In this document: positions 10,853-20,242 of the stretch, in pieces
How the letters are laid out: the number at the start of each line of letters is the position of its first letter
How positions within the stretch are numbered: position 1 is the first letter of the stretch
From: a virus
Reading direction: 5' to 3' (one strand)
DNA length: 49,491 bases
IMG/VR virus record: IMGVR_UViG_3300005323_000007
The notes under the pieces: generated by a model
What the model was told of the DNA's origin: nothing
The model's input: only the letters and a program-made list of their open reading frames with translations
The model's database searches: none
Made by a program: the position numbers and the translations under genes

Positions 10853-10924
10853 CTAGGGCGGCTGGATTCGAACCAGCGATAACCAGAACCAAAATCTGGC
10901 GGCTTACCACTTGCCTACACCCTA
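10853..10924 (-). tRNA. tRNA-Gln (anticodon UUG)
   Basis: Hand-folded 72-nt cloverleaf. Acceptor UAGGGUG/CGCCCUA with U1-A72 and G73; 3-bp D stem with loop AAGUGGUAA; anticodon stem CCAGA/UCUGG with loop UUUUGGU; T arm GCUGG-UUCGAAU-CCAGC. No CCA is encoded. Confidence 0.85.
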
Positions 10925-11030: not shown

Positions 11031-11102
11031 TGGAGTTAATGGGATTTGAACCCATAACCTTTGGCTTGCAATGCCAACGCTCTACCATTGCGCTATAACC
11101 CC
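11031..11102 (-). tRNA. tRNA-Ala (anticodon UGC)
   Basis: Hand-folded 72-nt cloverleaf. Acceptor GGGGUUA/UAACUCC with the G3:U70 Ala identity pair and A73; anticodon stem UUGGC/GCCAA with loop AUUGCAA; T arm AUGGG-UUCAAAU-CCCAU. Confidence 0.85.
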
Positions 11103-16737: not shown

Positions 16738-17304
16738 ATGGCGAAAAAAATTTGTGCGTCGAAATGGGAAGCGATAACATGGGCGGGGGAATGCCCGATC
16801 GCGTGGGAAAGAATGGGAATGTTTGTGGGGATGGATGAAAATGGGAACGTCATGGCACAAATGGCATGGAAGCCCCGGCACGACACAAAAGTGTATTTAC
16901 AGCGGGCGCCTATCGCGTGGTCAAGCTCGGAAACCGTCAGACAGCGCCTGGGGCTCGATCCTCCAGGGATAGGGTCGCGGTGCCGGAAAGGCGGATCGAC
17001 AACCACCGAGCGCAAAGCCGAGGCGGCGCGTGCGAACGGTCTGAAGGGCGGTACACGCCTCTCCTGCGCGCCGGTGCCGGAAGGCGAAAAGATGAACCGA
17101 CAGGTGATCTATTTGACGACAAGCGCGTTGCAGATGCTTCGCTCACACGGTCAGGGAAAAATGTCGGCATATGTCGAAAAATTGATACGCGACGATAACA
17201 CCGCCGTAAAAAAATGGGAAAACACGCAGGCGATCATGAAAATGAAAATGCCCGCGATGAACGGCGATGCCGTCATCGTCGAGACAGGGGAGAGCGCAAC
17301 ATGA
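16738..17304 (+). CDS. Early protein with a ribbon-helix-helix-like C-terminal region
   Basis: RBS AAGGAG. RQVIYLTTSALQMLRSHGQGKMSAYVEKLI looks like an RHH. It shares the W..ETVRxRLGLD motif with the next gene. Confidence 0.5.
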   Translation: MAKKICASKWEAITWAGECPIAWERMGMFVGMDENGNVMAQMAWKPRHDTKVYLQRAPIAWSSSETVRQRLGLDPPGIGSRCRKGGSTTTERKAEAARANGLKGGTRLSCAPVPEGEKMNRQVIYLTTSALQMLRSHGQGKMSAYVEKLIRDDNTAVKKWENTQAIMKMKMPAMNGDAVIVETGESAT

Positions 17305-17639
17305 TGATGAAAAAAGAGTGGGACGAGTACCGCGCAAAAGACGAGGCGACACCGCGAAAAAAAGTCGTCAAAAACGTCGAAGAAGCGGAATGGTTCTGCA
17401 AGGGCGGAAACTGGAAAAGCACCAAGGTGGCCATATTTGTACAGAGCTATAACCACGCCTCCGCCTGTATCCGGCGTGGAGGGCAGAGCCGCGTCATCCA
17501 GGTGTCGGCTGATACGATGCGCTGGTCGCCGATGGAAACCGTGCGCGAACGCTTAGGCCTCGATCTGATCCAGGGCCTTTATCATACCGAGGAGGAGGCC
17601 CGCGCCGCTGGATGGGATGGCCCCATGACCAAGGGATAG
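17301..17639 (+). CDS. Hypothetical early protein (paralogous motif WSPMETVRERLGLD)
   Basis: ATGA overlap with the upstream stop. Start trimmed to 17301. Confidence 0.5.
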   Translation: MMMKKEWDEYRAKDEATPRKKVVKNVEEAEWFCKGGNWKSTKVAIFVQSYNHASACIRRGGQSRVIQVSADTMRWSPMETVRERLGLDLIQGLYHTEEEARAAGWDGPMTKG

Positions 17640-17694
17640 TAAACGCTTGTGTAGTAGTTATGATGATAAATCGTAAAAATAATAATTATAATCA

Positions 17695-17723
17695 TTGACA
17701 TAATGTCATAACGGGTGTATATT
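17695..17723 (+). promoter_or_regulatory. Near-consensus sigma70 promoter with a palindrome over the -35 element
   Basis: TTGACA, a 17-nt spacer, then TATATT. The -35 element is part of TTGACATAATGTCA. Confidence 0.55.
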
Positions 17724-17756
17724 GATAATAGAGAGATTGAGAGAGGAGATAAAGAG

Positions 17757-17960
17757 ATGACAGCACTAGAGCAGATACAGAGCACACTTCACCGCGATGG
17801 TATGGTGACGGTATCTACTCACCTGAGATGTACACAGTATCTAGGTGCAAAATATGAGCACTGGTTTAGCGATGATGCGCGCGGCGATCTGTATGTACAG
17901 TCTGGAGCCAAACGCGTCTGTATATCGTTTTGTCAGATTAAGTTGTATCAAAAGCGGTAG
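17757..17960 (+). CDS. Hypothetical protein
   Basis: Start trimmed to MTALEQ, preceded by GAGAGGAG. Confidence 0.45.
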   Translation: MTALEQIQSTLHRDGMVTVSTHLRCTQYLGAKYEHWFSDDARGDLYVQSGAKRVCISFCQIKLYQKR

Positions 17961-18033
17961 AGAGCGCGGGCGACGCAGGGCGCGTTAAACCGGAGGCCGA
18001 GTCCAAACCCTCGGCAGGTATGGAGGTAGAGAG

Positions 18034-18270
18034 ATGAAATTGGCGATTGGAGTAAAAACGGTCGATTTGGGTGGTGGTGAGTATTTGCATTTTTGGTATG
18101 CAAATAACGCAGGTAGGGGGTGCAGTAACTGCACAATAATCAGATCCAGAAGCCCTGCCCGTGCAATTTGTGCAAAAAAACAGGCAGATGTCATCTCACA
18201 GGTGAAAACGAGTGCATGGAAGGGCCACGTAAATTTCAGCCAGCCGACAAAAACCGCACTTGGCCTATAG
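18034..18270 (+). CDS. Hypothetical protein (uncertain; the region is also hairpin-rich)
   Basis: 78-aa ORF with GGAGG 8 nt upstream of the ATG. No recognisable motifs. Confidence 0.35.
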   Translation: MKLAIGVKTVDLGGGEYLHFWYANNAGRGCSNCTIIRSRSPARAICAKKQADVISQVKTSAWKGHVNFSQPTKTALGL

Positions 18271-18299
18271 CTAAGGCGATGGGGCCCGCGCAAGCGGGC

Positions 18300-18355
18300 T
18301 CTGGTCTGGCGCTCGATCGCGCCACTGATGAGACCCCGCGAGGGTCGAAACCAGA
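18300..18355 (+). ncRNA. Type III hammerhead ribozyme
   Basis: Reads UCUGGU-C|UGGCGC-UCGAUC-GCGCCA-CUGAUGA-GACCC-CGCGA-GGGUC-GAA-ACCAGA. The full invariant core and GUC cleavage triplet are present. Stems I, II and III are 6, 5 and 6 bp, with stem III open-ended. Confidence 0.85.
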
Positions 18356-18385
18356 AGAGAACTTCAGAAAAATGGAGGTCGTAAG

Positions 18386-18628
18386 ATGAAACGCAGATTT
18401 ATGGCATGGTGCCGTGGAAGTTGTAATAGTTTAAGAGTTACGCGCTCGGCAAGCGACGCGGTTGATGCTGGCGTTGAGGATATTGATTTTGGTATCAACC
18501 TGATGATGTCGGGCGATTCCGTCGCGGTATATCTCAACTCCGGGCGGAAAGGCGACCTGAATCATCTGCTATTGGGCGAGTATTCCCGCGCCGATCTTGT
18601 AAGGATGACGGCGGAGGCCAGAAGATGA
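18386..18628 (+). CDS. Hypothetical protein
   Basis: 80-aa ORF with GGAGG 7 nt upstream. It is the first cistron downstream of the hammerhead. Confidence 0.5.
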   Translation: MKRRFMAWCRGSCNSLRVTRSASDAVDAGVEDIDFGINLMMSGDSVAVYLNSGRKGDLNHLLLGEYSRADLVRMTAEARR

Positions 18629-18664
18629 GATTCGCTACAGCAAGCCAACAATTGGTATGCATAA

Positions 18665-18710
18665 GGCGCGAGCGGTGGTTCTTGTGGCGGTTCAACCCCG
18701 CCACGCGCCA
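18665..18710 (+). ncRNA. tRNA-like acceptor/T-arm minihelix
   Basis: GGCGCG...CGCGCC stem stacked on (G)UGGCGG-UUCAACC-CCGCCA(C), with a T-loop-like UUCAACC, then an unpaired A. Only 14 nt occupy the place of the D and anticodon arms. Confidence 0.5.
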
Positions 18711-18745
18711 GCTTCAGAAAATTTGATATTGCAAGGGAGGTTGAA

Positions 18746-18964
18746 ATGAAAAAGGCAGAACGCGACTCGTTCGCTCGGGCTCTTATGGAAAACGCAATTA
18801 AAGGCATTTGTCGGGGGCTGGAAAATGCCCCTGAAACATGGGATGGTGTAGAAATACGTCAATACTGCATGGATTATGTAAAAAACAATGTTGTTTTCTG
18901 CAAAATGCCAAAAAGTAGGAAGGCCGCATATAATAATACTATTTTAATCAATAATCTTTTATAA
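18746..18964 (+). CDS. Hypothetical protein
   Basis: 72-aa ORF with RBS GGGAGG. Confidence 0.5.
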   Translation: MKKAERDSFARALMENAIKGICRGLENAPETWDGVEIRQYCMDYVKNNVVFCKMPKSRKAAYNNTILINNLL

Positions 18965-18975
18965 GAAGGTAAATC

Positions 18976-19179
18976 ATGATTGATTCTTTGATCGCGTGTT
19001 TCAAAAAGGAAATGACGGTTGCCAAGGCGATTCGCACCACGGCAAAGGAAAAGGGCGAGTGGCCGAGCGCCCGGGATGTGCTTCAGGCGCAAAAAGCATT
19101 GAAGAAAGATGATGACGAAGAGGACGACGAGGACAGTGAAGGTCAGCGGATGATCGACCGAGAAATAGCGAGTTACTGA
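18976..19179 (+). CDS. Hypothetical protein with an acidic tract
   Basis: 67-aa ORF with RBS GAAGG. Contains a DDDEEDDEDSE tract. Confidence 0.45.
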   Translation: MIDSLIACFKKEMTVAKAIRTTAKEKGEWPSARDVLQAQKALKKDDDEEDDEDSEGQRMIDREIASY

Positions 19180-19224
19180 AATGGGGCGTTGCCTTAGTGG
19201 AATATCAGTCGTGGATGTATGACA

Positions 19225-19344
19225 ATGAAGTTGAAAGACAAGCGCACGAAAGCGCAGGCTGAGAAAGCGATCAAGAGGGCGATCCGCAAATTCGGCGACC
19301 GCGACGGTTCACTCAAGAAAAAGCTGAAGGAGGTTGAGGGATGA
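19225..19344 (+). CDS. Small basic ORF (39 aa), below the track threshold
   Basis: Hand translation gives MKLKDKRTKAQAEKAIKRAIRKFGDRDGSLKKKLKEVEG. It has an ATGA overlap with the next gene. Confidence 0.3.
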   Translation: MKLKDKRTKAQAEKAIKRAIRKFGDRDGSLKKKLKEVEG

Positions 19345-19610
19345 ATCTCAATGAGTATCTTGCAACGATTCTACAGTGGCCTGGTCTCACAAAAGAAGAG
19401 GCGGCTGAGGCTCAAGCAAAAATCAAAAGACTTTATCAGGGCCGGAATCTAAAAAACAGAAAAGTGTATTTTACCTATCCTTTTGAAGAAAATAGGCCAA
19501 ATTTATCGCGACTTTTTATTTTTGCTCAAACAAAAGAAGGACATTCATATTGGTATCATCTTTATGAGGCGGAATGCGAATTTTATAGATTAAAGGAGGT
19601 ATCTGGATGA
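19341..19610 (+). CDS. Hypothetical protein
   Basis: 89-aa ORF with RBS GGAGG. Confidence 0.5.
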   Translation: MNLNEYLATILQWPGLTKEEAAEAQAKIKRLYQGRNLKNRKVYFTYPFEENRPNLSRLFIFAQTKEGHSYWYHLYEAECEFYRLKEVSG

Positions 19611-19660
19611 AATAATCGGTCGATTCAAGATTTTGAAAGGGTCGCGCTGAGGCGCGACCC

Positions 19661-19711
19661 CGGTCGTGGCGTGATGCTCGCCGCCTGAATGAGTCCAGCA
19701 GGACGAAACCG
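19661..19711 (+). ncRNA. Hammerhead-like (type III topology) element with a 1-nt core insertion
   Basis: Reads CGGU-C|GUGGCG-UGAUGCU-CGCCGC-CUGAAUGA-GUCC-AGCA-GGAC-GAA-ACCG. The layout matches 18300..18355, but the core is CUGAAUGA rather than CUGAUGA and stem III is only 4 bp. Confidence 0.5.
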
Positions 19712-19730
19712 AAAAATGGGAGGATAAGGA

Positions 19731-19961
19731 ATGACGAATATCCCCACCTCAGTTCATTCGCTCTCGCAACCGGTGCGAAGGTACGATATTCAGGTATCGT
19801 TCTATGGTCGAAGGCCCGTCGCGGAATTCGAAGATATCAAAGCGAATTGTGCGGAGGATGCGAGAGCATGGGCACGGAAAATCTGTGAAGAATATTACTC
19901 ATACCCTATCAAAAACATTATGGCAATCGAAGTCAAAACGATAAGGAGAATGCCATGCTAG
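19731..19961 (+). CDS. Hypothetical protein
   Basis: 76-aa ORF with GGGAGG 7 nt upstream. It is the first cistron after the second hammerhead-like element. Confidence 0.5.
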   Translation: MTNIPTSVHSLSQPVRRYDIQVSFYGRRPVAEFEDIKANCAEDARAWARKICEEYYSYPIKNIMAIEVKTIRRMPC

Positions 19962-20053
19962 ACGATGATGATGACGATGATCCAGAGCCGCAGCCTGAGT
20001 TACACGACGAAACGTACTATAATATTCTGTACGGCGTTAGTAGGAGCGATTGA
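19955..20053 (+). CDS. Small acidic ORF (32 aa), below the track threshold
   Basis: Begins MLDDDDDDDPEPQPELHDETYYNILYGVSRSD. RBS AAGGAG. Its stop abuts the next ATG (tgaATG). Confidence 0.3.
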   Translation: MLDDDDDDDPEPQPELHDETYYNILYGVSRSD

Positions 20054-20242
20054 ATGCCAAGCGAACGGATAATCGAAACAAGACAGCACGGCAATGATAC
20101 GCTTGAATGCGTGGTTCCGTCCGGCGGAGATCCTGTGGGGTGTCCGAAATGCTTTTTCTTCGTGGGGCTTGATGGGTATTGCGCCCCTTCTTCTCACGCA
20201 TGTGAGAAATATTTGCGGTCATATTGGAGGTTGAAGAGATGA
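20054..20242 (+). CDS. Hypothetical Cys-rich protein
   Basis: 62-aa ORF with an ATGA overlap onto the clamp gene. Confidence 0.4.
   Translation: MPSERIIETRQHGNDTLECVVPSGGDPVGCPKCFFFVGLDGYCAPSSHACEKYLRSYWRLKR

What the first reader, a model, noticed from the sequence alone, without database searches (positions are those of the whole stretch)
17695..19735. System-level view: an early operon punctuated by self-cleaving and tRNA-like RNA elements
A near-consensus promoter at 17695..17723 heads a series of small cistrons. Three consecutive intercistronic gaps longer than 100 nt each hold a compact structured RNA directly upstream of a strong RBS: a hammerhead (18300), a tRNA-like minihelix (18665) and a hammerhead variant (19661). 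Other gene junctions in the arm are tight, with ATGA/GTGA overlaps.

This looks like deliberate RNA punctuation. It would cut a polycistronic early transcript into units with defined ends, uncoupling their stability and translation. The genes served are all small and of unknown function (18386.., 18746.., 19731..), the class that often encodes host-takeover or anti-defence proteins. I am not aware of this combined arrangement being described as a phage regulatory strategy, but I cannot search to confirm that.
Basis: inference. Interest (0 to 1): 0.8.

Follow-up and report, generated by a model that had tools for sequence, protein, structure and literature searches.

The report
Ribozyme-punctuated phage operon of small genes
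A phage operon of small unknown genes carries self-cutting RNAs (two hammerheads and a decayed twister) and a tRNA-like mini-hairpin in the gaps between genes. This layout was described for phages in 2011, and its biological purpose is still unproven.

Summary
Window 18300-18355 is a textbook type III hammerhead. Window 19661-19711 is a hammerhead with a one-base core insertion (CUGAaUGA), a natural variant reported to have low activity. Window 18665-18710 is a 46-nt acceptor/T-arm "tRNA top half". A best-in-region sigma-70-like promoter sits at 17695-17723.

It is canonical in a related phage fragment (L006) but probably crippled here.

All elements lie on the coding strand, 19-35 nt upstream of the next start codon, and the two hammerheads follow a GC hairpin. 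Between the window and L006 the genes are swapped, while the RNA modules are conserved with sharp edges.

The "RNA punctuation" idea is not new. Perreault et al. 2011 described multiple hammerheads flanking small prophage genes and proposed that they process polycistronic RNA. My survey of about 119 viral loci shows the hairpin-hammerhead-RBS layout is the norm.

The tRNA-like module is the less ordinary part. Elements of the same architecture form covarying arrays in other phage contigs, sometimes beside hammerheads. However, a model of that family does not recognise the window's copy.

No transcript data exist, so cleavage and its effects are inferred.

The parts
17695..17723 (+). Sigma-70-like promoter, TTGACA-17 nt-TATATT. 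A TGACA-N3-TGTCA inverted repeat overlaps the -35 box.
   Evidence: 11 of 12 consensus positions, best in the region; 17635-17743 is 99% identical in L006. The inverted repeat was read directly.
17757..17960 (+). Small ORF (67 aa) absent from L006. Its stop codon overlaps the 5' end of the twister-like element.
   Evidence: called gene; no counterpart in L006; no family.
17956..18013 (+). Twister-derived element, with the putative cut between U17986 and A17987. Probably impaired. Its 5' part is a 24-nt hairpin identical to the L006 leader; its 3' half is homologous to the L006 twister.
   Evidence: Rfam Twister-P5 gives 22.9 bits (gathering score 37.6). The L006 counterpart at 772-827 scores 52.4 bits, E = 3.6e-9. 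Alignment. Pseudoknot T2 is kept through a compensatory change, while T1 keeps only 1 of 3 pairs (my inference).
18034..18270 (+). Small ORF (78 aa).
18283..18299 (+). GC hairpin (GGCCCGC-GCAA-GCGGGC) directly 5' of HH1. It would cap the 3' end of the upstream cleavage product.
   Evidence: -19 kcal/mol for the upstream 40 nt. In L006 the stem is kept and the loop is UUCG instead of GCAA.
18300..18355 (+). HH1, a canonical type III hammerhead. The predicted cut is after C18306.
   Evidence: structure scan and shuffles; Rfam 37.9 bits, E = 1.8e-7; orthologue in L006, 40.9 bits, E = 1.4e-6.
18374..18388 (+). GGAGG ribosome-binding site and ATG of the 80-aa gene. Together with hairpin and HH1 this forms a conserved cassette that ends exactly at the ATG.
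   Evidence: identity with L006 runs through the ATG and stops at the next base. The downstream gene in L006 is a different, 142-aa LPD29 protein.
18386..18628 (+). Small ORF (80 aa).
18665..18710 (+). tRNA top-half mimic: acceptor-like stem, a linker containing UGGU, and a T-arm with loop UUCAACC. The stack totals 12 bp, with A as discriminator and no anticodon arm.
   Evidence: fold, z = -3.1; T-arm motif; 98% identical in L006, conservation ends exactly at the element's edges; the single change G to A keeps a pair; not a tRNA by ARAGORN or Rfam.
18746..19610 (+). Four tightly packed small ORFs: 18746-18964, 18976-19179, 19219-19344 and 19341-19610.
   Evidence: The junctions are 11 nt, 39 nt and an ATGA overlap.
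19639..19660 (+). GC hairpin (GGGUCGCGC-UGAG-GCGCGACCC) directly 5' of HH2.
   Evidence: -19.9 kcal/mol.
19661..19711 (+). HH2, a type III hammerhead with a one-base insertion in the core (CUGAaUGA). The predicted cut is after C19665.
   Evidence: Rfam 28.4 bits, with the extra A modelled as an insert. Perreault 2011 reports low activity for a natural insertion after A6. Absent upstream of the orthologous gene in L006.
19718..19961 (+). GGGAGG ribosome-binding site and the 76-aa ORF (19731-19961).

Best explanation
**What it is.** Window 17.7-19.7 kb is the promoter-proximal part of a rightward phage operon of small accessory genes. Its longer intercistronic leaders carry RNA cleavage modules. 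This locus is an ordinary member of the known class of phage and prophage operons punctuated by self-cleaving ribozymes.

**How it works (inferred).**
- HH1 cuts itself during transcription. HH2 does so more weakly.
- Each upstream fragment then ends in a GC hairpin followed by 5-7 nt with a 2',3'-cyclic phosphate.
- Each downstream fragment starts with a 5'-OH that is already paired in stem I. It keeps a fixed leader 19-30 nt ahead of a strong ribosome-binding site.
- This separates the stability and translation of neighbouring cistrons. It gives each gene a context-independent leader, as engineered ribozyme insulators do.

**The other two elements.** The 46-nt tRNA top-half mimic probably plays the same role through host RNase P and/or RNase Z. 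The twister-like element is a recombination-damaged copy that may no longer cut.

**Cassette exchange.** The same modules are the conserved joints at which gene cassettes are exchanged between related phages.

**Shown versus inferred.** The sequence and structure features, their position and strand, their conservation, and the generality of the layout are shown. Cleavage in vivo, the fate of the products and any benefit to the phage are inferred.
For: - **Not chance.** There are two hammerhead hits with stems of at least 4 bp, against none in 100 shuffles. Rfam E-values are 1.8e-7 and 9.5e-5.
- **Orthologue in a relative.** L006 carries HH1 in front of a different gene, and a bona fide twister scoring 52.4 bits against a gathering score of 37.6.
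- **Compensatory changes.** Stems I, II and III and the upstream hairpins of HH1 and HH2 differ by compensatory changes.
- **Sharp module edges.** The hairpin-HH1-RBS-ATG cassette and the 48-nt tRNA-like module are conserved islands between unrelated genes.
- **The layout is general.** In 106 type III hammerheads from IMG/VR loci, 76% have an SD-led start within 40 nt downstream, against 11% at random positions. The 40 nt upstream is more structured than control sequence (mean -12.2 against -7.9 kcal/mol, p about 1e-7). 25 loci carry 2-7 hammerheads.
- **Literature.** Clustered prophage hammerheads cleave in vitro and in E. coli, and mRNA processing was proposed (PMC3088659; PMC6765202).
- **tRNA-like part.** It has the T-arm motif, a 12-bp stack and a UGGU linker. 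Elements of the same architecture occur in arrays, sometimes on the same strand as hammerheads, in other phage contigs and show stem covariation.
Against: - There are no transcript-end or activity data for this phage, and the host is unknown.
- Both hammerheads score below Rfam's gathering threshold.
- HH2's core insertion is of a kind reported to give low activity. L006 expresses the orthologous gene without it, so it is not essential.
- The window's twister-like copy lacks two of the three inferred T1 pairs and scores 22.9 bits.
- In hosts that have RNase J, a 5'-OH end can promote decay rather than stability (own knowledge of the glmS system).
- The tRNA-like element is not recognised by ARAGORN, by the Rfam tRNA model (10.3 bits), or by my model of the AACUGG family (8.3 bits).
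- Real tRNAs are not interleaved in the other hammerhead arrays examined.
Confidence: 0.65

Rival explanations
1. The RNA modules persist mainly as recombination joints or selfish cassettes. Short conserved sequences between accessory genes provide homology for cassette swapping between co-infecting phages, like the promoter/stem-loop cassettes of T4-type phages. Ribozyme cleavage would have little regulatory consequence.
For: In the window-versus-L006 mosaic, homology is confined to the promoter, a 24-nt hairpin, the HH1 cassette, the 48-nt tRNA-like module and one tiny ORF, with unrelated genes between them. The window's twister-like element looks like a product of recombination inside its P1 hairpin. 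HH2 is present or absent in front of the same gene.
Against: Plain homology does not need an intact catalytic core, compensatory stem changes, or a fixed position 19-30 nt upstream of a ribosome-binding site. These features hold across about 100 unrelated viral hammerheads. The two roles are also not mutually exclusive.
Confidence: 0.2
2. The ribozymes act as negative or timing devices. Cleavage exposes the downstream early mRNAs to decay, as the glmS ribozyme does through RNase J, and so limits how long the small genes are expressed.
For: The glmS precedent is summarised in PMC6765202. The host is unknown, so an RNase J-type decay pathway cannot be excluded.
Against: The cleavage site lies at the base of a stable stem I, so the new 5' end is paired. 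The upstream product is capped by a strong hairpin. Both are features that protect RNA ends rather than expose them. A strong ribosome-binding site follows each ribozyme.
Confidence: 0.12
3. The 46-nt tRNA-like element is not a processing signal. It could be a decayed tRNA gene remnant, a DNA-level site (a palindromic recombination or binding site), or simply a stabilising hairpin.
For: tRNA tools do not recognise it. It has no CCA end. Only two nearly identical copies are known. Its edges coincide with recombination breakpoints. The related AACUG...CAGUU family shows no G-U pairs in 178 cells, which is compatible with DNA-level pairing.
Against: - It has a complete T-loop consensus with a G-C closing pair.
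- It has a 12-bp stack.
- A UGGU linker is shared with ten independent elements from other phages.
- Its orientation is always that of the genes.
- The only substitution, G-U to A-U, keeps an RNA pair that would be a C-A mismatch on the other strand.
- No cellular tRNA gene in 185,579 species genomes carries this T-arm.
Confidence: 0.35
4. The elements are inactive relics. The gaps function only through their hairpins, for example as RNase III or RNase E sites or as pause signals.
For: All Rfam scores in the window are below gathering thresholds. HH2 and the twister-like element deviate from their consensus cores.
Against: HH1 has a perfect core and all three stems, and it differs from its L006 orthologue by only one loop base despite gene turnover on both sides. 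The descriptor finds no such motif in shuffles.
Confidence: 0.08

Closest known systems
Clustered hammerhead ribozymes flanking genes in prophages (Perreault et al. 2011, PMC3088659)
   Same: Both have several hammerheads on one strand between small, variable genes of a phage. Both invite the proposal that a long transcript is cut into gene-length mRNAs, and natural core variants occur in both.
   Different: Here the array mixes a type III hammerhead, a hammerhead with a core insertion, a twister-derived element and a tRNA-like module. The phage is an uncultured lineage with no DNA match among deposited phage genomes.
Co-location of twister, hammerhead and other ribozyme classes near phage genes (review PMC6765202; RAGATH motifs, own knowledge of Weinberg et al. 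2015)
   Same: A twister (canonical in L006) and hammerheads lie within 0.3-2 kb of each other in one operon.
   Different: No Rfam family, RAGATH families included, matches the tRNA-like element at E <= 10.
Plant mitochondrial t-elements and the mitochondrial tRNA punctuation model (PMC1920247)
   Same: A partial tRNA mimic with the GGTTCRANYCC T-arm lies between coding regions. This is the kind of signal that RNase P and RNase Z use to create mRNA ends.
   Different: This element is in a phage of a bacterium, is only 46 nt with no anticodon arm, and its processing is untested.
Non-tRNA RNase P substrates of phages: P1/P7 C4 RNA precursor and phi80 M3 RNA (listed in PMC11143913)
   Same: These are phage transcripts shaped so that host RNase P cuts them.
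   Different: Those mature small RNAs. Here the proposed role is to separate cistrons.
Engineered ribozyme insulators such as RiboJ (own knowledge: Lou et al. 2012)
   Same: A hammerhead placed just upstream of a ribosome-binding site removes upstream context and standardises expression.
   Different: RiboJ is a synthetic part derived from a plant satellite RNA. Here the cassette is natural and carries a hairpin on the upstream side.
AACUG...CAGUU T-arm minihelix arrays found here (loci L021, L030, L160-L168)
   Same: The architecture matches: 5-6 bp acceptor-like stem, a linker with UGGU, a 6-7 bp stem with a UUCGAYU loop, and about 12 stacked pairs. The elements sit 17-37 nt upstream of an ATG, on the gene strand, sometimes with hammerheads on the same strand.
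   Different: The sequence is different (GGCGCG acceptor, 14-nt linker). The covariance model of that family does not detect the window element, so homology is not shown.

Membership tests
Hammerhead ribozyme, type III (RF00008) | Core C3-U4-G5-A6-N7-G8-A9 ... G12-A13-A14 and a cleavage triplet N-U-H. | tested here: met
   HH1 has CUGAUGA ... GAAA with GUC at 18304-18306. HH2 does not meet the strict core, because CUGAaUGA has one extra base.
Hammerhead ribozyme, type III (RF00008) | Three stems, with stems I and II closed by loops and stem III open. Pairs G10.1-C11.1 and A15.1-U16.1 must be intact. | tested here: met
   HH1 stems are 6/5/6 bp and HH2 stems are 6/4/4 bp, and both closing pairs are present in each.
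Hammerhead ribozyme, type III (RF00008) | Score at or above Rfam's gathering threshold (48.5 bits). | tested here: not met
   HH1 scores 37.9 bits, HH2 28.4 bits and L006 HH1 40.9 bits. E-values are nevertheless 1e-4 to 1e-7. Many bacterial and phage hammerheads differ from the plant and viroid-weighted model (own knowledge).
Hammerhead ribozyme, type III (RF00008) | Site-specific self-cleavage giving 2',3'-cyclic phosphate and 5'-OH ends. | not testable with these tools
   Requires in vitro transcription or end-specific RNA-seq.
Twister ribozyme, type P5 (RF02684) | Score at or above the gathering threshold (37.6 bits). | tested here: not met
   The window element at 17956-18013 scores 22.9 bits. 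The related element at L006 772-827 scores 52.4 bits and does meet it.
Twister ribozyme, type P5 (RF02684) | Double pseudoknot, with T1 joining L4 to L1 and T2 joining L4 to L2, plus a U-A cleavage step. | tested here: inconclusive
   The U-A step is present (UUAAACC). T2 is kept through a compensatory change (GG:CC against GC:GC in L006). T1 keeps 1 of 3 pairs in the window and 3 of 3 in L006. The base-level mapping is my inference and the description in PMC6154101.
tRNA (RF00005 / ARAGORN) | Cloverleaf with an anticodon arm, and detection by tRNA models. | tested here: not met
   ARAGORN makes no call at 18665. Rfam tRNA gives 10.3 bits against a gathering score of 29, aligning only the T-arm and the 3' acceptor strand. 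There is no anticodon arm.
t-element-like tRNA mimic (RNase P / RNase Z signal) | T-arm motif GGTTCRANYCC, a T-stem stacked on an acceptor-like stem of about 12 bp in total, and ends that coincide with RNA termini. | tested here: inconclusive
   The motif is present. A 12-bp stack and a 7-nt loop with a G-C closing pair are present. RNA termini and enzyme cleavage are not testable here.
   Only a local T-loop hit was found, at 8.3 bits and E = 6.7. The model rests on four similar sequences and is narrow.
Phage multi-ribozyme operon (Perreault 2011 arrangement) | Two or more self-cleaving ribozymes on one strand flanking single genes or short gene blocks in a phage genome. | tested here: met
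   The phage identity rests on the terminase, tape measure protein and replication genes. HH1 and HH2 lie 1.3 kb apart on the gene strand, flanking five small ORFs.

The most novel reading that the evidence does not exclude
Self-cleaving ribozymes and small tRNA top-half mimics may be interchangeable "cut here" modules in phage accessory operons. The 46-nt element at 18665-18710 would then represent an undescribed class of phage punctuation signals. That class includes the covarying AACUG...CAGUU minihelix arrays found here in other viral contigs, some of which also carry hammerheads. The signals would be read by host RNase P and/or RNase Z. All these modules would double as standard joints that let accessory genes be swapped while keeping a fixed leader and ribosome-binding site. 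If true, this would show that the purpose of the long-unexplained phage ribozymes is simply precise mRNA scission.
Probability: 0.3. Interest if true: 0.7.

Novelty: new member of a known kind. Interest (0 to 1): 0.42.

Why it matters
The biological role of the thousands of hammerhead and twister ribozymes in bacteria and phages is still unsettled. This locus adds no new principle for the ribozymes.

It does give a compact natural comparison. Two related phages carry the same RNA modules in front of different genes. One ribozyme is present in one phage and absent in the other in front of the same gene. A non-catalytic tRNA-like module occupies an equivalent slot.

If the tRNA-like module is cut by RNase P or RNase Z, that would argue that cleavage itself is the selected function. 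It would also extend tRNA punctuation, known from mitochondria, to phage operons.

Tried and rejected
- **Relatives by DNA or protein.** blastn of 17600-20100 against 50,697 phage records found no match. A clamp-protein search in IMG/VR found no relatives.
- **Clamp homologues at 30% identity** (L007, L008) have AT-rich promoter-like gaps and no hammerhead hits in my scan; L007's gaps were also read directly.
- **Nine IMG/VR relatives of the terminase** (52-62% identity, 123 kb) gave no Rfam hit at gathering level and no hammerhead by my structure scan.
- **Pattern scans for HH1 and for the tRNA-like T-arm in IMG/VR** found nothing. The single metagenome scan returned 13 unrelated hammerheads and no relative of this phage.
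- **Origin of the tRNA-like element from a cellular tRNA or an attP site.** A 24-mer gave no hit and a 19-mer gave 10 hits in 185,579 species genomes. All ten lie outside tRNA genes, in what read as protein-coding contexts.
- **Model R1 of the tRNA-like element** found no further copy in about 1 Mb of viral loci.
- **Real tRNA genes are not interleaved** in 24 multi-hammerhead loci.
- **A recurring CYTCAG motif after the elements** is not enriched in the window.
- **Other ribozyme classes** (pistol, hatchet, twister-sister, HDV-like) gave no Rfam match at E <= 10 in 17600-20100.
- **A solitary CRISPR repeat like the one in L006** is not present in the window.
- **A mistyped ribosome-binding-site pattern search** was uninformative.


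Full report
**Context.** The window is a phage-like metagenome contig. Exact matches of its proteins are found on ENA ERZ27247097 k141_474787 (49.5 kb) and JGI 3300027419 Ga0209340_1000675. The contig encodes a large terminase, a tape measure protein, a clamp-like protein, an SbcC-like protein and primase/helicase proteins. Genes run leftward up to about 16 kb and rightward from about 16.7 kb. The finding covers the start of the rightward arm.

**Checking the observation: promoter and gaps.**
- The promoter-like site TTGACA-17-TATATT at 17695-17723 matches 11 of 12 positions and is the best in 15.5-22.5 kb. The overall number of such sites is what shuffles give.
- The gene calls give gaps of 117 nt (promoter), 73, 115, 117, 11, 39, an overlap, then 120 nt. 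Downstream junctions are then mostly overlaps or a few nt as far as 21.9 kb.

**Checking the observation: hammerheads.**
- I wrote a structure scan for hammerheads of all three topologies. It finds exactly two loci in the 49.5-kb window on both strands.
- HH1 at 18300-18355 has core CUGAUGA/GAAA, triplet GUC, and stems of 6/5/6 bp.
- HH2 at 19661-19711 has core CUGAaUGA and stems of 6/4/4 bp.
- Block shuffles gave 0.08 hits per window, and none in 100 with all stems of at least 4 bp.
- Rfam missed both in large scans. On short stretches it gives Hammerhead_3 scores of 37.9 bits (E = 1.8e-7) and 28.4 bits (E = 9.5e-5), below the gathering score of 48.5.
- HH2's extra A corresponds to a natural "insertion after A6" that Perreault et al. 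found to give low activity.

**Checking the observation: the tRNA-like element.**
- Window 18665-18710 folds with z = -3.1 into a 5-bp acceptor-like stem, a 4-bp mini-hairpin and a 7-bp stem with the 7-nt loop UUCAACC. That makes 12 stacked pairs, as in the acceptor/T-arm of a tRNA.
- It carries the T-arm motif GGTTCRANYCC. The only other copies of that motif in the window are in the two real tRNA genes.
- It is not a tRNA. ARAGORN is silent and the Rfam tRNA model gives 10.3 bits.

**A fourth element.** The 73-nt gap holds a sub-threshold Twister-P5 match at 17956-18013 (22.9 bits against a gathering score of 37.6).

**A related phage.**
- The clamp protein has one close relative (96% identity) on a 4.6-kb Logan contig, L006.
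- L006 shares the promoter (99%) and the right-hand genes (97%), but the small genes in between are different.
- Homology is confined to islands:
  - a 24-nt hairpin;
  - the hairpin-HH1-RBS-ATG cassette, where identity stops at the base after the ATG and the hairpin loop changes from GCAA to UUCG;
  - the 48-nt tRNA-like module, 98% identical, with edges exactly at the element; the one change, G-U to A-U, keeps a pair;
  - one 41-aa ORF.
- L006 has a canonical twister (52.4 bits, E = 3.6e-9) and HH1 (40.9 bits).
- L006 has no hammerhead in front of the orthologue of the 76-aa gene.

**The window's twister-like element is a hybrid.**
- Its 5' part is the 24-nt hairpin that forms the leader in L006. 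Its 3' half is homologous to the L006 twister.
- I mapped the pseudoknots from the Rfam consensus, the L006 copy and the description in PMC6154101. T2 is kept through a compensatory change, but T1 keeps only one of three pairs.
- I therefore regard this copy as probably weak or dead. That judgement is inference.

**How general is the layout?**
- In those loci my scan found 152 hammerheads. 25 loci carry 2-7 each. L028, for example, has seven, six of them 18-21 nt upstream of an ORF of 49-208 aa.
- Of 106 type III hammerheads, 76% have an SD-led start within 40 nt downstream, against 11% at random positions.
- The 40 nt upstream is more structured than control sequence (mean -12.2 against -7.9 kcal/mol, p about 1e-7).
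- Thirteen further unrelated metagenome examples look the same.
- The hairpin-hammerhead-RBS cassette of this window is therefore the norm.

**Literature.**
- Perreault et al. 2011 (PMC3088659) state that multiple hammerheads often flank individual genes or short gene blocks in prophages and that the gene identities are not constant.
- They suggest this implies processing of long phage transcripts into operon- or gene-length mRNAs. They also showed that such arrays cleave in vitro and in E. coli.
[quoted passage not shown] It notes that ribozymes cluster with each other and near phage genes, and says the purpose is still undefined.

**Mechanism (inference from anatomy).**
- HH1 would cut after C18306.
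- The upstream RNA would end in the hairpin at 18283-18299 plus UCUGGUC with a cyclic phosphate.
- The downstream RNA would begin with U18307, already paired in stem I, and would keep the ribozyme as a fixed leader 30 nt ahead of the ATG. HH2 has the same layout.
- Both new ends are structured, which argues for protecting both products rather than destroying them.
- Together with the cassette-like conservation, I read the modules as natural insulators that also serve as recombination joints.

**The tRNA-like lead.**
- A generic scan for short acceptor/T-arm minihelices in the hammerhead-selected viral loci found the same architecture in L021 (two copies) and L030. These lie on the hammerhead strand, 17-37 nt upstream of an ATG.
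- A pattern scan plus a covariance model (R2) recovered 19 copies in 10 loci, up to three per locus.
- In the stem below the loop, five of six pairs show changes on both sides, and 98% of cells are paired. The alignment was fitted to the model, and part of the acceptor's invariance comes from how the sequences were selected.
- UGGU in the linker is invariant across family members and the window element.
- However, model R2, built without the window sequence, does not detect the window element (8.3 bits, local hit). Model R1 of the window element finds no other copy.
- The window element therefore works like that family but cannot be shown to belong to it.
- No cellular tRNA gene carries its T-arm, which weakens an attP or tRNA-fragment origin.
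- The closest described analogues are the plant mitochondrial t-elements cut by RNase P and RNase Z (PMC1920247) and phage RNAs that are RNase P substrates (PMC11143913).
- I found no paper describing such elements in phage operons.

**Verdict.** The tRNA-like module is the one component that may be new.

Noticed in passing
L006 1908-1939 (minus strand), in the 176-nt gap before its 72-aa gene: The sequence GTCGCGCCCCGCACGGGCGCGTGGATTGAAAC looks like a solitary type I-C-style CRISPR repeat (Rfam CRISPR-DR9, 23 bits, E = 0.09). It is antisense to the operon. It may be an RNA anti-CRISPR-type solitary repeat (compare PMC10651486). No copy exists in the window.
   Followed up: partly
L021, L030, L160-L168 (IMG/VR contigs), e.g. 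L165 5698-5738, 6171-6212, 6733-6773: These loci hold arrays of about 41-nt elements of the form AACUG(N)-(N)AUGGUC..-stem-UUCGAYU-stem-(N)CAGUU, with covarying stems. There are up to three per locus, 17-37 nt upstream of ATGs, and hammerheads lie on the same strand in L021, L030 and L164. Weak members replace AUGGU and UUCGAYU together with AAAGU and AGCGAUA. I could not check them against Rfam.
   Followed up: partly
IMG/VR loci L018-L136, e.g. L028 3617-6699: Hammerheads in viral contigs sit a median of 21 nt upstream of an SD-led start codon, and the 40 nt before them is unusually structured. L028 has seven type II hammerheads in 3 kb, six of them directly upstream of a small ORF.
   Followed up: yes
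window 17696-17708: An inverted repeat TGACA-TAA-TGTCA overlaps the -35 box of the promoter and looks like an operator. A 71-aa protein with a LexA-type DNA-binding domain is called on the opposite strand of the source contig (L001 718-933).
   Followed up: no
window 10853-10924 and 11031-11102 (minus strand): Two bona fide tRNA genes (Gln-UUG and Ala-UGC) lie in the leftward structural arm.
   Followed up: no
window 16738-17304 and 17301-17639: The two ORFs upstream of the promoter share a motif, W-S-x-x-ETVR(Q/E)RLGLD. This suggests paralogy. Neither protein matches any family.
   Followed up: no
L006 1072-1135: In L006, stem III of HH1 can extend to 10 bp by using the 3' strand of the upstream hairpin (GGGCUCUGGU/ACCAGAGCCU). 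Hairpin and extended stem III are therefore partly mutually exclusive. The window copy has only 6 bp.
   Followed up: no
window 18362-18371, 18712-18721; L006 gaps: A short CYTCAG(A/T)AAA string follows HH1, the tRNA-like element and several L006 modules. It is not enriched in the window as a whole and is probably shared cassette ancestry.
   Followed up: yes
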